This document shows, piece after piece, positions 30,001 to 33,000 of a stretch of 58,638 nt of DNA. Positions within the stretch are counted from its first letter, which is position 1. Each line of letters starts with the position of its first letter. The position numbers are program-made. The DNA is from a virus (Duplodnaviria > Heunggongvirae > Uroviricota > Caudoviricetes). Location of the stretch: the IMG/VR virus record IMGVR_UViG_2870479586_000001, positions 1 to 58,638 of that record; one strand, given 5' to 3'.

Positions 30001-33000
30001 CAGGGACGTCAATAAAATCATGGCCCGCCAGAAACTCGGGGTACAGCTCGATTTTACTGACGGCAAAGGAAGTTTTGGCGGTCTTGATAACATGTTCAGG
30101 CAACTGGCAAAGCTGCGAAAACTGACCGACGTTAAGCGAACAGGTGTACTTAAGGCAATATTTGGTGATGATGCCGAAACCCTTCAGGTGGTCAATGCAC
30201 TAATCGATAAAGGAAAGGATGGCTACGATCAGATCCAGCAGAAGATGAATAAACAGGCCAGCCTGAATAAACGTGTTCAGGCCCAGCTTGGTACGCTGTC
30301 CAACCTGTGGGAGGCAATGACGGGGACCGCAACTAACGGCCTTGCGGCTATTGGCGGCGCATTTTCTGGTGACGCCAAAAATATCACGCAATGGCTGGGG
30401 GAGTTGGGGGAGAAATTCACGAAGTTTGCGGATGAAAATCCCCGGGTTATTCGCGGCGTCGTCGGGCTTGCTGCCGGTCTTGCGATTCTGAAACTGGGAT
30501 TGATGGGCGTGGGCAGTGCCATCAGTATCGTCAGCAGGATCATGTCGATGACGCCGATTGGCATGATTGCGACGGCGATTGCCCTGGCTGCGGGATTAAT
30601 TATCACTAACTGGGATGTTGTCGGACCTTATTTTAAGAAACTCTGGGAAACCATTAGTCCTTATTTTGAGGCTGGCTGGGAACTTCTGAAGAAGGTTTTT
30701 GCCTGGTCGCCGCTGGGGATGGTGATCAATAACTGGGGACCGGTTGTTAAGTGGTTTCAGGATATGTGGGATAAGCTGAAGCCGATTATTGAATGGTTTA
30801 CCGACAGTTCCGGTGACACGGTCGATGCCATTAACTCGGCGCAGTGGGGCGCGGGTGCTTATGATGCTTATGGGACGGGAGTACCGGCACGGGGATACAC
30901 TCCTTATCCGGCGGTGGATCCGGCTCAGGCAAACAACGCCTCCGATGCCACAGGCTCGAATCCCTTCATGATTAATAAAGCTACCGCGCCAAAAGTTGAT
31001 GGTGAGATCAAGGTATCATTTATAAATATGCCACCAGATATGCGGGTTACGGAAACACGCTCCAGTGGCATTGATATAAATCACGATGTTGGCTATACCC
31101 GATTTTGGTAGCCAGGATTCCCCTCACAGGTATTGCTGGTTGTAAGTCATAAATAGAGTGATAGAATTAATGCACATTTAGAAAAATGTTAATAGGCGAA
31201 AAATGAAAGGCTATATCACAGCAAGTGTAATTCTTGGAGCAGCGGCTATTTTTTCATCTCTCATAATCTCTGGCAACATCTCCTTTAAAGATGAACATAT
31301 TATTCAGTTATCTGGAGGAGCCATAAAACTTGGTGATGTTTATAAAGAAAATAAATTGATAAGTGCAAAGATTATTTTTCCAGATAATCAGGGTGAACAG
31401 ATTCTTGTTGTCGACGGCAATCCTGAAAACTTTAAGGAGGATTTTCAGGAGAAATTAAATAAAGTAATAAAAACTTTAAATGCGTCAAAGAAAAAAGATG
31501 AAGAGAAAGTTAGCCTGGATAATTTAAGTGTTATTGAAGAGTCTAAACTAGAGCTCGTTTCTGCGGTGCGTTACTCTGCTCAGTATGTTCCTATGTTTAC
31601 TCTGACGCTGGACAAAAAAGAAATTACCATGCCTAAAAATACGGTAATATTTCCATTTGCCAGCGATGAAACAGCTAAGTATTTAAATGAACAACAGCAA
31701 AAGTATAAAGATTCGTTGTTTCTGACTCGCTAATTAATAAAATTCATTACAAGGCCACCTTCTAATAGGTGGCTTTTTTATTTTCGGAGTGTATATGACG
31801 TGGAAAGACAGGCTTCAGGATGCGTCATTTCGAGGTGTGCCGTTTAAGGTTGAAGAAGAAAGTGCGGGAACCGGTCGCCGTGTGGAAACACATGAATACC
31901 CGAACCGCGACAAGCCCTATACCGAAGATCTGGGAAAAGTCACTTTCCGCCCGTCCATCACAGCTTATGTGGTGGGAGATGACTGCTTTGACCAGCGCGA
32001 TCGCCTGATTGAAGCGCTGAATAAACCAGGTCCCGGCACGCTTGTCCACCCGACATATGGTGAGCTGAAAGTCTGTGTTGACGGGGAAGTTCGGGTCAGC
32101 ACATCGAAAAGTGAAGGGCGTATTGTCCGCTTTGACCTGAAGTTTGTCGAAGCAGGAGAACTCTCTTACCCCACATCAGGTGCGGCGACGGCGCAGACGC
32201 TGATGTCATCCTGTTCTGCACTGGATGACTGCATCAGTGACAGCTTCAGCGGTTTCAGTATCGATGGTGTGGCGGATTTCGTGCAGAACGACGTTATCGG
32301 TAATGCCAGCATAATGCTGGGGTATGTTTCTGATGCGATGAAAGTGGTGGATTCTGCCGTATCGGATGCCGCCAGGCTGTTGCAGGGGGATATCTCGGTA
32401 CTTCTGCCGCCGCCATCGTCAGGCAAAAATTTCGTTGAGCAGGTGCAGAAAATGTGGCGTGCCGGGAAACGCCTTTATGGTAACGCCAGCGACCTGGTCA
32501 CCATGATCAAAACGCTTTCTGGTGTCAGCCTCGGCAGCGATTTGCAACCGCGCGGCGTCTGGAAAACGGACAGTAAAACCACCGCCACAGCGACGCAGCA
32601 GCGTAACATGGTTGCCAGCACCCTTCGTACGACTGCAATCAGCGAAGCGGCGTATGCCGTTACCCGATTGCCTGCGCCAACAACTTCTGCGGTGATGCAG
32701 AATGCCGCAGTGGGGCAGTCAACAACACCCGCGCAGAGCTCCGGCTGGCCTGCCGTCACGCATCCGGTGCTGAACAATGCACCGGCGGTGAAAAACACGG
32801 TTGACCTGCCAACGTGGGAAGAACTGACCGACATTCGCGACACACTGAATACGGCAATTGATAAGGAGTTGTCCCGTACAACCAGTGATGCGCTGTTTCT
32901 GGCTCTGCGCCGGGTGAAAGCAGATCTGAATGCGGATATCAACACGCGCCTTGAACAGTCTGCTCGGATCATTCAGCGCACGCCGGATGAGGTTTTACCC

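What the first reader, a model, noticed from the sequence alone, without database searches (positions are those of the whole stretch)
31112..31785. AT-rich moron inside the contractile-tail gene block
Between the tape measure gene and the gpN-like gene lies a 176-aa ORF of clearly lower GC. It has an N-terminal hydrophobic anchor or signal, a Lys/Glu-rich body, a TTGTAA-16-TAGAAT promoter-like sequence upstream and a strong intrinsic terminator downstream. Its placement mirrors lom/cor-type morons in lambdoid tails, which encode envelope proteins for superinfection exclusion or host interaction.
Basis: partly seen in the sequence, partly recalled or inferred. Interest (0 to 1): 0.6.

Follow-up and report, generated by a model that had tools for sequence, protein, structure and literature searches.

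The report
Membrane-anchored cargo gene in prophage tail
A small AT-rich accessory gene sits between two tail genes of an SfV-like E. coli prophage; it encodes an uncharacterised protein predicted to be anchored in the inner membrane, occupies a slot that related phages leave empty or fill with other genes, and most plausibly shields the host from other phages, though this is untested.

Summary
A 176-aa ORF (31203-31733, +) with GC 0.34 lies between the tape measure gene (GC 0.52) and the Mu-N-like gene (GC 0.56). A sigma-70-like promoter lies upstream and a strong terminator downstream.

It fits the classical definition of a moron. SfV, SfII and SfI are 96-97% identical in both flanking genes, yet have only a 60-bp spacer here.

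The slot is a multi-allelic cargo site. About 870-1100 of 5426 complete E. coli genomes carry the flanks. Of these, 179 carry this gene. Others carry a secreted protein (85), a membrane-anchored OB-fold protein (79), a lipoprotein (55) or a bacterial PH-domain protein (28).

The protein has one N-terminal membrane helix and a roughly 150-aa alpha/beta domain predicted to face the periplasm (AF2 pLDDT 91). It has no Pfam, NCBIfam, PADLOC or PDB relative. Its family (77 representatives at 50% clustering) recurs just after tape-measure or hub genes in two contractile-tail module types. It also occurs in a Q-lysis slot, in genomic islands and in a decayed prophage.

Superinfection exclusion at DNA entry is the best guess (about 0.4) and is untested. 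The terminator is a property of the slot, not of the cargo. The closest analogue is HK97 gp15, not lom or cor, and it is not a homologue.

The parts
29279..31111 (+). Tail tape measure gene (left flank of the slot)
   Evidence: PF10145 PhageMin_Tail, E 1.3e-26. 96-97% DNA identity to the SfV, SfII, SfI and SKA5 tape measure genes.
31112..31202 (+). Upstream untranslated part of the cassette. It holds a sigma-70-like promoter TTGTAA-16-TAGAAT (31140-31167, TG extended -10) and a weak AGG Shine-Dalgarno sequence.
   Evidence: 9 of 12 matches; not above chance on its own. The -35 and -10 align in E. coli, L095, Leclercia and Lelliottia. Promoter-like sites lie 19-38 nt before the ATG in L093 (11 of 12), L095, L006 and L097.
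31203..31733 (+). Cargo gene X: 176 aa, family PHROG 5485, RefSeq WP_000679479.1 'hypothetical protein'
   Evidence: Found at 99% identity or more in 179 of 5426 E. coli genomes. dN is far below dS between orthologues. AF2 pLDDT 91.1.
31206..31271 (+). Codons 2-23: predicted signal-anchor membrane helix (N-terminus in the cytoplasm)
   Evidence: AF2 helix 2-23. Hydropathy 2.1. In the family the N-terminal net charge is +1 and the 15 residues after the helix are net -0.6, in 49 of 61 members. There is no lipobox and no conserved signal-peptidase site.
31275..31730 (+). Codons 25-176: alpha/beta domain predicted to be periplasmic. Conserved residues are G39, L43, G44, Y47, E49, N93, Y124 and L134.
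31751..31786 (+). Rho-independent terminator (stem 31751-31776 plus T-run), directly before the gpN ribosome-binding site
   Evidence: dG -15.6 kcal/mol, z -6.0. An equivalent hairpin with a different stem sequence is present in empty and alternative slot states.
31795..33123 (+). Mu N-like 'DNA circularization' tail gene (right flank). Its GGAG ribosome-binding site is at 31785-31788.
   Evidence: PF07157 DNA_circ_N, E 3.8e-34. The RefSeq start in the near-identical locus maps to 31795.
15762..16451 (+). Q-type antiterminator of the same prophage. It is relevant because Q-modified late transcription would read through the junction terminator.
   Evidence: PF06323 Phage_antiter_Q, E 5e-94. Read-through itself is inferred from lambdoid biology.

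Best explanation
The feature is an autonomous prophage cargo gene (a moron). It occupies a multi-allelic cargo slot between the tape measure gene and the Mu-N-like gene of an SfV-like, thrW-integrated E. coli prophage.

Shown here: related phages have the slot empty or filled with other genes. The gene has its own composition. It belongs to a conserved, purifying-selected family of about 175-aa proteins. Each has one N-terminal membrane helix followed by a confidently modelled alpha/beta domain with no known relative.

Inferred: in the lysogen the gene is transcribed from its own sigma-70 promoter. During lytic growth it is also transcribed by Q-antiterminated late transcription, which reads through the junction terminator. 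The protein inserts into the inner membrane with its N-terminus inside and its domain in the periplasm.

Most likely function, untested: superinfection exclusion after adsorption. The periplasmic domain would bind the tape measure or tail-tip apparatus of an incoming phage, or a host factor that this apparatus uses. That would prevent a DNA channel forming across the inner membrane. HK97 gp15, lactococcal Sie2009 and T4 Imm are proposed to act this way.

Confidence is about 0.9 that it is a moron encoding an inner-membrane-anchored periplasmic protein. It is about 0.4 that the function is exclusion of phage DNA entry. The figure given below refers to the functional claim.
For: Moron status:
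- SfV, SfII and SfI have only a 60-bp spacer at this junction, with flanks 96-97% identical.
- GC is 0.34 against 0.52-0.56 in the flanks.
- A promoter-like site is conserved in position.

Cargo slot:
- Five gene families alternate at the same junction. Four of them carry a membrane anchor, a lipobox or a signal peptide.
- Two of these cassette families recur in the same slot in an Edwardsiella phage and a Pantoea phage.

Real protein:
- 77 family representatives.
- dN 0.13 against a saturated dS.
- AF2 pLDDT 91.

Topology:
-.
- The only structural match is a phage lipoprotein, that is, the same fold tethered to a membrane.

Independence from its neighbours:
- Homologues lie between Q and the holins in a Citrobacter prophage.
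- Others lie beside an IS element and a toxin-antitoxin pair in Pectobacterium.
- One lies beside a helicase-nuclease, methyltransferase and ResIII cluster.
- One is intact in a decayed Lelliottia prophage, where only a relic of the tape measure 3' end survives.

Hints towards exclusion:
- It shares architecture and a position next to the tape measure gene with HK97 gp15.
- It diverges faster than its neighbours: 41-59% identity against 68-82% for gpN and gpP.
- It recurs just after tape-measure or hub genes in two contractile-tail module types.
Against: There are no expression, localisation or phenotype data. No family member hits PADLOC convincingly, and no characterised homologue exists. 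The promoter match alone is at chance level. Envelope location is equally compatible with functions unrelated to phages. In the E217-type modules the gene is embedded in the operon, with its stop overlapping the next start and no clear promoter. That fits a lytic-cycle role as well as a lysogen role. Only two non-phage contexts look defence-like.
Confidence: 0.4

Rival explanations
1. It is a lysogenic-conversion factor unrelated to phage defence. The periplasmic, membrane-anchored protein would alter envelope physiology or host interaction, for example stress tolerance, envelope-enzyme inhibition or surface modification, in the sense of Bor or Lom.
For: The predicted envelope location. It is retained intact in a decayed prophage and in islands. 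It is common in E. coli from humans, livestock and the environment. SfV-family phages are known for lysogenic conversion (PMC3851460).
Against: An inner-membrane tether with a 150-aa domain cannot reach the cell surface, unlike Lom, Bor or Ail. No similarity to any known virulence or stress family was found. The repeated placement next to tape-measure and hub genes in two tail types has no explanation under this reading.
Confidence: 0.2
2. It is an accessory of the phage's own lytic cycle. It would be made late with the tail proteins and act in the infected cell's envelope. For example, it could stop progeny or kin from injecting into cells already infected or lysing, or assist lysis or tail maturation, rather than protect the lysogen.
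For: It has the same orientation as the late operon and lies downstream of a Q antiterminator. In E217-type modules it overlaps the next baseplate gene and lacks a clear promoter. It has stayed in the TMP-gpN slot down to 30-34% identity.
Against: It is dispensable. SfV, SfII, SfI and about half of the related prophages lack any gene here. It also occurs outside tail modules and outside prophages. A promoter-like site is conserved before it in the SfV-type slot.
Confidence: 0.15
3. It is an orphan immunity protein against a periplasm-acting toxin, such as a T6SS or CDI effector, a colicin or a tailocin-associated enzyme, carried as prophage cargo.
For: It has the size and periplasmic tethering typical of such immunity proteins (general knowledge). 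It is mobile, AT-rich and island-associated. Its sequence diverges quickly.
Against: No cognate toxin gene is adjacent in any of about 15 contexts examined. No similarity to known immunity families was found.
Confidence: 0.08
4. It is a spurious ORF or a decaying remnant with no function.
For: It is annotated only as hypothetical. It has no domain hits.
Against: 77 family representatives keep the same length and architecture. dN is far below dS. AF2 pLDDT is 91 from a 61-sequence alignment. The ORF is intact in 179 E. coli genomes.
Confidence: 0.02

Closest known systems
HK97 gp15, the first described moron; a superinfection exclusion protein of the YebO-like family (Cumby et al. 2012; PMC3594210)
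   Same: Both are accessory genes inside a tail operon directly beside the tape measure gene. Both are followed by a terminator, are absent from close relatives, and have a single N-terminal membrane helix. gp15 blocks DNA entry in a tail- or tape-measure-dependent way.
   Different: gp15 is 62 aa with almost no extramembrane domain, lies upstream of the tape measure gene, and belongs to a siphovirus. There is no sequence similarity (BLASTP E 17). The present protein has a 150-aa folded periplasmic domain and sits in contractile-tail modules.
Lactococcal Sie2009-type proteins and S. thermophilus Ltp; membrane-tethered exclusion proteins (McGrath 2002, Mahony 2008, Bebeacua 2013, as cited in PMC10883804)
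   Same: They are prophage-expressed proteins of roughly 160-175 aa, or lipoproteins, tethered to the cytoplasmic membrane with an extracytoplasmic domain. They block DNA injection, and Ltp targets the tape measure protein.
   Different: Their hosts are Gram-positive and their phages are siphoviruses. The genes lie near the lysogeny module, not in the tail operon. Homology was not tested here because no sequences were at hand. Ltp's helical repeat fold (own knowledge) differs from this alpha/beta model.
P22 SieA (PMC10883804)
   Same: It is a prophage-expressed inner-membrane protein of similar size (162-164 aa) that blocks DNA delivery.
   Different: SieA is polytopic, with three predicted membrane helices and a cytoplasmic conserved motif. 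The present protein is bitopic. SieA belongs to a podovirus and is not encoded in the tail operon.
Lambda Lom and phi80/N15 Cor
   Same: They are accessory genes embedded among tail genes of temperate phages. They encode envelope proteins expressed from the prophage.
   Different: Lom is an outer-membrane beta-barrel and Cor is an outer-membrane lipoprotein acting on FhuA. The present protein has no Pfam match, no cysteine or lipobox, and is predicted to be anchored in the inner membrane.
Accessory-gene hotspots of P2-like phages and P4-like satellites (Rousset et al. 2022, as cited in PMC10884400)
   Same: A fixed position between conserved phage genes holds alternative, mostly AT-rich cargo genes that are exchanged among relatives.
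   Different: This is a different phage family and position (the TMP-gpN junction of SfV-like phages). The cassettes here are single small genes, four of five families with a membrane anchor, lipobox or signal peptide. None is a recognised defence system.

Membership tests
Moron (Juhala/Hendrix definition, PMC3594210) | Inserted between two genes that are adjacent in related phage genomes | tested here: met
   SfV, SfII, SfI and many E. coli prophages have only a 60-bp spacer between tape measure and gpN genes that are 94-97% identical.
Moron (Juhala/Hendrix definition, PMC3594210) | Base composition differs from the surrounding genes | tested here: met
   GC 0.34 against 0.52 and 0.56; GC3 0.30 against 0.57 and 0.59. 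The same contrast holds in all ten other contexts checked.
Moron (Juhala/Hendrix definition, PMC3594210) | Own promoter | tested here: inconclusive
   The 9-of-12 extended -10 site is at chance frequency on its own. However, its position is conserved in orthologues, and L093 has a site matching 11 of 12. No transcript data are available.
Moron (Juhala/Hendrix definition, PMC3594210) | Own terminator | tested here: inconclusive
   A strong hairpin follows the gene. But a hairpin is also present in empty sites and after every alternative cassette, so it belongs to the slot.
Moron (Juhala/Hendrix definition, PMC3594210) | Expressed from the repressed prophage | not testable with these tools
   This needs RNA-seq or a reporter in a lysogen.
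HK97 gp15 / YebO family | Sequence homology to gp15 or YebO | tested here: not met
   BLASTP E 17 against HK97 gp15.
HK97 gp15 / YebO family | Blocks phage DNA entry without blocking adsorption | not testable with these tools
   This needs plating, adsorption and injection assays.
Lom (Ail/Lom outer-membrane beta-barrel) and Cor (lipoprotein) | Ail/Lom Pfam domain, or a lipobox with an invariant cysteine | tested here: not met
   No Pfam family at E up to 1. The protein has no cysteine, and 42 of 61 family members have none.
P22 SieA | Polytopic inner-membrane protein with three membrane helices | tested here: not met
   There is a single hydrophobic segment. The highest hydropathy elsewhere in the family is 1.2, with a median of 0.59.
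Known anti-phage defence systems (PADLOC-DB 2.0) | Match to a model of a known or candidate defence protein | tested here: not met
   No hit for the protein. Only two isolated weak hits among the 61 family members.
PHROG 5485 (phage protein family of unknown function) | Full-length match to the family profile | tested here: met
   E 3.8e-108 over positions 1-176 of 176. The family carries no functional annotation.
Bitopic (signal-anchor) inner-membrane protein with a periplasmic domain | One N-terminal membrane helix, positive-inside charge bias, no cleavage site or lipobox | tested here: met
   AF2 helix 2-23. The charge bias holds in 49 of 61 members. The residues where a signal peptidase would cut, at the C-terminal end of the hydrophobic segment (residues 21-23: ISG, ISD, NSK), are not conserved. 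This is prediction only.

The most novel reading that the evidence does not exclude
Family X is a widespread, previously unrecognised class of superinfection-exclusion proteins with a fold not seen in solved structures. It would be specialised against contractile-tail temperate phages. Its periplasmic domain would intercept the tape measure or hub apparatus as it emerges from the tail tube. That would explain why the gene has stayed next to tape-measure and hub genes in two unrelated myovirus tail lineages down to about 30% identity. In the same reading, the TMP-gpN junction of SfV-like phages is a dedicated, multi-allelic envelope-defence locus whose five cassette families are alternative exclusion specificities.
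Probability: 0.2. Interest if true: 0.65.

Novelty: new variant of a known kind. Interest (0 to 1): 0.42.

Why it matters
SfV-like prophages are present in about a fifth of complete E. coli genomes and include the Shigella serotype-converting phages. This work defines a fixed cargo slot in their tail operon with at least five alternative gene families, four of them with a membrane anchor, lipobox or signal peptide. That gives a compact, testable set of candidate phage-exclusion or envelope-modifying genes. The commonest occupant is a conserved protein with a confident predicted structure and no known relative. If it blocks DNA entry, it would add a new protein family to the known superinfection-exclusion factors. 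Few of those come from temperate contractile-tail phages (own knowledge). It would also matter for predicting phage susceptibility of clinical and veterinary E. coli. If it does not, it is still a typical uncharacterised moron.

Tried and rejected
- Pfam, NCBIfam and PADLOC scans of the protein and of all 61 family members gave nothing credible.
- The weak PHROG 'endonuclease' hit (E 0.014) was treated as chance. SNIPE-type membrane nucleases (PMC13190303) were considered and set aside, because no nuclease similarity was found in sequence or fold.
- A profile search of PDB sequences gave E 0.49 at best.
- The afdb50 library was unavailable.
- No DNA or tblastn match was found in deposited phage genomes, so no isolated phage is known to carry the gene.
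- Pattern-based locus searches with the wide alignments failed for lack of a conserved stretch. Single-protein scans for three distant members found nothing in viral contigs.
- No paper mentions the RefSeq accession. The SfII and SfIV genome papers discuss other morons, not this slot.
- dN/dS between distant orthologues is unreliable because dS is saturated. Only the qualitative result, dN far below dS, is used.
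Full report
**1. The observation**

The window has a 176-aa ORF at 31203..31733 (+). On its left is a 610-aa tape measure gene (29279..31111, PF10145). On its right is a Mu-N-like 'DNA circularization' gene (PF07157). RefSeq annotation of a near-identical locus places the start of the right-hand gene at ATG 31795.

- ORF GC is 0.343 (GC3 0.30). The tape measure gene is 0.515 (GC3 0.57) and gpN is 0.556 (GC3 0.59).
- The terminator is strong: dG -15.6 kcal/mol, z -6.0.
- The promoter match alone is at chance level, with 3 sites found against 2.9 expected.

**2. The genomic setting**

The window begins with a gene carrying an aldehyde dehydrogenase domain, consistent with proA, and tRNA-Thr(CGU) at 1369-1444, read as thrW. 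An integrase follows at 1459-2622, then an S24 repressor and a Q antiterminator at 15762-16451. Next come HK97-type head genes and a Mu-type contractile tail.

The tape measure and gpN genes are 96-97% identical in DNA to the Shigella serotype-converting phages SfV, SfII and SfI and to coliphage SKA5. From my own knowledge, this family integrates at thrW. A second lambdoid prophage follows, with its integrase at 42620-43753. It shares 2.1 kb of 98% identical early-region DNA with the first.

**3. It is a moron in the strict sense, in a multi-allelic slot**

I searched the two 600-bp flanks joined together. They occur in 1096 of 5426 complete E. coli genomes, 867 of them with both flanks. The distance between the flanks takes discrete values. 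Fetching examples showed these states of the slot:

| Slot state | Cassette | Genomes of 5426 |
|---|---|---|
| Empty | 60-bp spacer; includes SfV, SfII, SfI | not counted directly |
| This gene | 683-bp cassette, 176-aa protein | 179 |
| Secreted protein | 170 aa, signal peptide, as in phage SKA5 | 85 |
| OB-fold protein | 148 aa, PF12869, N-terminal membrane helix, opposite strand | 79 |
| Lipoprotein | 225 aa, lipobox LLGGC | 55 |
| Bacterial PH-domain protein | 125 aa, PF08000 | 28 |

All cassettes are AT-rich (GC 0.31-0.42). These counts assume each cassette lies in the slot, which I verified only for the examples fetched.

Two of the cassette families recur in the same slot in other genera. 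Edwardsiella phage EPP-1 carries the PH-domain protein at 89% identity. Pantoea phage AH07 gene 16 is 41% identical to the SKA5 protein.

Every state, including the empty one, ends in a GC-rich hairpin plus T-run directly before the gpN ribosome-binding site (CGGAGTTTATATG). The stem sequences differ between states. SfII's authors annotated this hairpin as a putative terminator. The terminator therefore belongs to the junction rather than to this cargo gene. A Q antiterminator in the same prophage offers a way for late transcription to pass it. That step is inferred from lambdoid biology.

**4. The protein**

There is no Pfam, NCBIfam or PADLOC match. The protein matches PHROG 5485 over its full length, a family of unknown function. 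RefSeq calls it hypothetical (WP_000679479.1), and no paper in the library mentions that accession. No deposited phage genome carries the gene, but 80 or more IMG/VR prophage contigs do.

A word-indexed search found only 25 clusters: E. coli at about 99% identity, and Leclercia and Lelliottia at 53-58%. An exhaustive profile search found 77 representatives at 50% clustering, nearly all 165-200 aa. Named members come from Edwardsiella, Citrobacter, Serratia, Pectobacterium and Aeromonas.

The 61-sequence alignment conserves an N-terminal hydrophobic segment, a G-x-V-x-L-G-x-V-Y-x-E hairpin, N93 and a V-x-Y-x-S-E-x-x-P-x-F-x-L-T-L strand. Between orthologues dN is far below dS, for example 0.13 against a saturated dS.

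AlphaFold2 gave pLDDT 63 with 14 sequences. With 61 sequences it gave pLDDT 91.1 and pTM 0.76. The model has a helix at residues 2-23, then a beta-sheet packed against two long helices.

- A profile search of PDB sequences found nothing.
- Foldseek against viral models gave one significant match, a 144-aa 'lipoprotein' of Pseudomonas phage ventosus (E 2.6e-6, TM 0.56/0.66). That suggests the same fold tethered to a membrane by a lipid instead of a helix.

Across the family there is one hydrophobic segment. The N-terminal net charge is about +1, and the 15 residues after the segment are net -0.6, in 49 of 61 members. There is no lipobox, and the residues where a signal peptidase would cut are not conserved. 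The predicted topology is N-terminus in the cytoplasm and the domain in the periplasm. This is a prediction, not a demonstration.

**5. Where the family lives**

*TMP-gpN slot of Mu/SfV-type tails:*
- E. coli (this window)
- Two IMG/VR lineages (L093, 59% identity; L095, 55%)
- Leclercia (53%)
- Edwardsiella (41%)
- Three more distant lineages (L105, 38%; L103, 34%; L106, 30%)

In L103 the neighbouring tail proteins are themselves only 31-43% identical to those in the window.

*E217/PhiTE-type myovirus baseplate blocks:* the gene lies between the hub-like gene and the spike in L104 and L107/L108. In L107 and L108 it is followed by other accessory genes (KilA-N, DUF551). In L104 its stop overlaps the next gene's start.

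*Other contexts:*
- Between the Q antiterminator and the holins of a Citrobacter lambdoid prophage
- Near the holin and RecT region of another prophage
- Beside an IS element and a CbtA/CbeA pair in Pectobacterium
- Beside a UvrD-PDDEXK, methyltransferase and ResIII cluster
- Next to icd in Lelliottia, intact and alone, where a 31-aa relic of the tape measure C-terminus survives upstream

In all ten contexts measured the gene has GC 0.30-0.40. The flanks are 0.45-0.57 in nine of them; the exception is L102, whose flanks are equally AT-rich at 0.33-0.35.

The gene diverges faster than its structural neighbours: 41-59% identity against 68-82% for gpN and gpP. Promoter-like sites of 9-11 of 12 matches lie 19-38 nt before the ATG in the window, L093, L095, L006 and L097.

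**6. Interpretation**

*Shown here:*
- It is a mobile, dispensable cargo gene under purifying selection.
- It sits in a slot that functions as a cargo hotspot.

*Predicted, not shown:*
- The product is a membrane-tethered folded protein.

*Inferred:*
- It is transcribed on its own in the lysogen.
- The late operon reads through the terminator under Q.
- The domain is periplasmic.

*Proposed function, about 0.4:* exclusion of superinfecting phage DNA at the inner membrane. The arguments are as follows.
- The architecture and the position next to the tape measure gene parallel HK97 gp15.
- The design resembles Sie2009, Ltp and SieA.
- Four of the five cassette families in the slot carry a membrane anchor, lipobox or signal peptide.
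- The gene evolves quickly.
- It is retained after prophage decay.
- It is repeatedly associated with tape-measure and hub genes of contractile tails.

Against this, there is no experimental evidence of any kind, no known relative, and envelope location fits other roles.

*Rivals:*
- A conversion factor unrelated to phages (0.2)
- A late lytic-cycle accessory (0.15)
- An orphan immunity protein (0.08)
- A spurious ORF (0.02)

**7. Comparison with known systems**

It meets the positional and compositional criteria of a moron (PMC3594210). It is not a member of the gp15/YebO family. It is not Lom- or Cor-like, having no domain and no cysteine. It is not SieA-like, having one helix rather than three. 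It is in no PADLOC family. It works like, at most, a bitopic exclusion protein.

The hotspot resembles the P2 and P4 accessory hotspots in principle, but it lies in a different phage family and position. I found no description of it in the SfII or SfIV genome papers or in the literature searches.

**8. Verdict**

The function is unproven, the terminator was misattributed, and the lom/cor analogy is loose. It is a new variant of a known kind and of moderate interest.

Noticed in passing
window 31112-31794; loci L007-L014, L111, L112: The TMP-gpN junction of SfV-like phages is a cargo hotspot. It has at least five alternative AT-rich single-gene cassettes plus an empty state. Two cassette families (the bPH_1 protein and the SKA5-type secreted protein) recur in the same slot in an Edwardsiella phage and a Pantoea phage.
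   Followed up: yes
L007 904-963; L014 2137-2196 (SfII); window 31751-31786: A rho-independent terminator hairpin lies directly before the gpN ribosome-binding site even in phages with an empty slot. The stem sequence differs between cassettes while pairing is kept. Why a tail operon keeps a terminator here is unexplained.
   Followed up: partly
L006 7800-8530 (Lelliottia amnigena, next to icd): An intact homologue (53% identity) stands alone beside icd, with only a 31-aa relic of the tape measure C-terminus upstream. This looks like a decayed prophage that kept just the cargo gene.
   Followed up: partly
window 1-2622: An aldehyde dehydrogenase-domain gene consistent with proA, tRNA-Thr(CGU) (read as thrW) at 1369-1444 and an integrase at 1459-2622(-). 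The prophage sits at the attachment site used by the Shigella serotype-converting phages (own knowledge). No gtr genes were looked for.
   Followed up: partly
window 7368-7934 (-): A low-GC 188-aa gene with a SocA/Panacea antitoxin domain lies next to the S24 repressor gene (8127-8855). It is probably a toxin-antitoxin or defence cargo of the immunity region.
   Followed up: no
window 42620-58638; repeats 4311-6393 vs 49284-51367: A second lambdoid prophage lies in tandem, with its integrase at 42620-43753(-). It shares 2.1 kb of 98% identical early-region DNA and three shorter repeats with the first. This is a substrate for recombination between the two.
   Followed up: partly
window 39705-42100: Between the two prophages there is a GIY-YIG (LEM-3-like) gene at 39705-40529(-). 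There is also a 1.3-kb block of GC about 0.34 holding a 207-aa ORF (41293-41916) with no Pfam match.
   Followed up: no
window 53473-55728 (+): A 751-aa protein made of Big_1/Invasin_D3 Ig-like repeats is encoded in the second prophage.
   Followed up: no
L002 10013-11808 (Leclercia) and L003-L005: Two extra genes (503-520 aa and 94 aa, no Pfam) lie between gpN and gpP in the Leclercia prophages. These two genes are adjacent in E. coli, so this may be a second variable slot in the same tail module.
   Followed up: no
L107 6001-8100; L108: In E217/PhiTE-type tail modules the family member shares its slot, between the hub and the spike, with other accessory genes (81 aa, DUF551, KilA-N/P63C). 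This indicates an analogous cargo hotspot in an unrelated myovirus tail lineage.
   Followed up: partly
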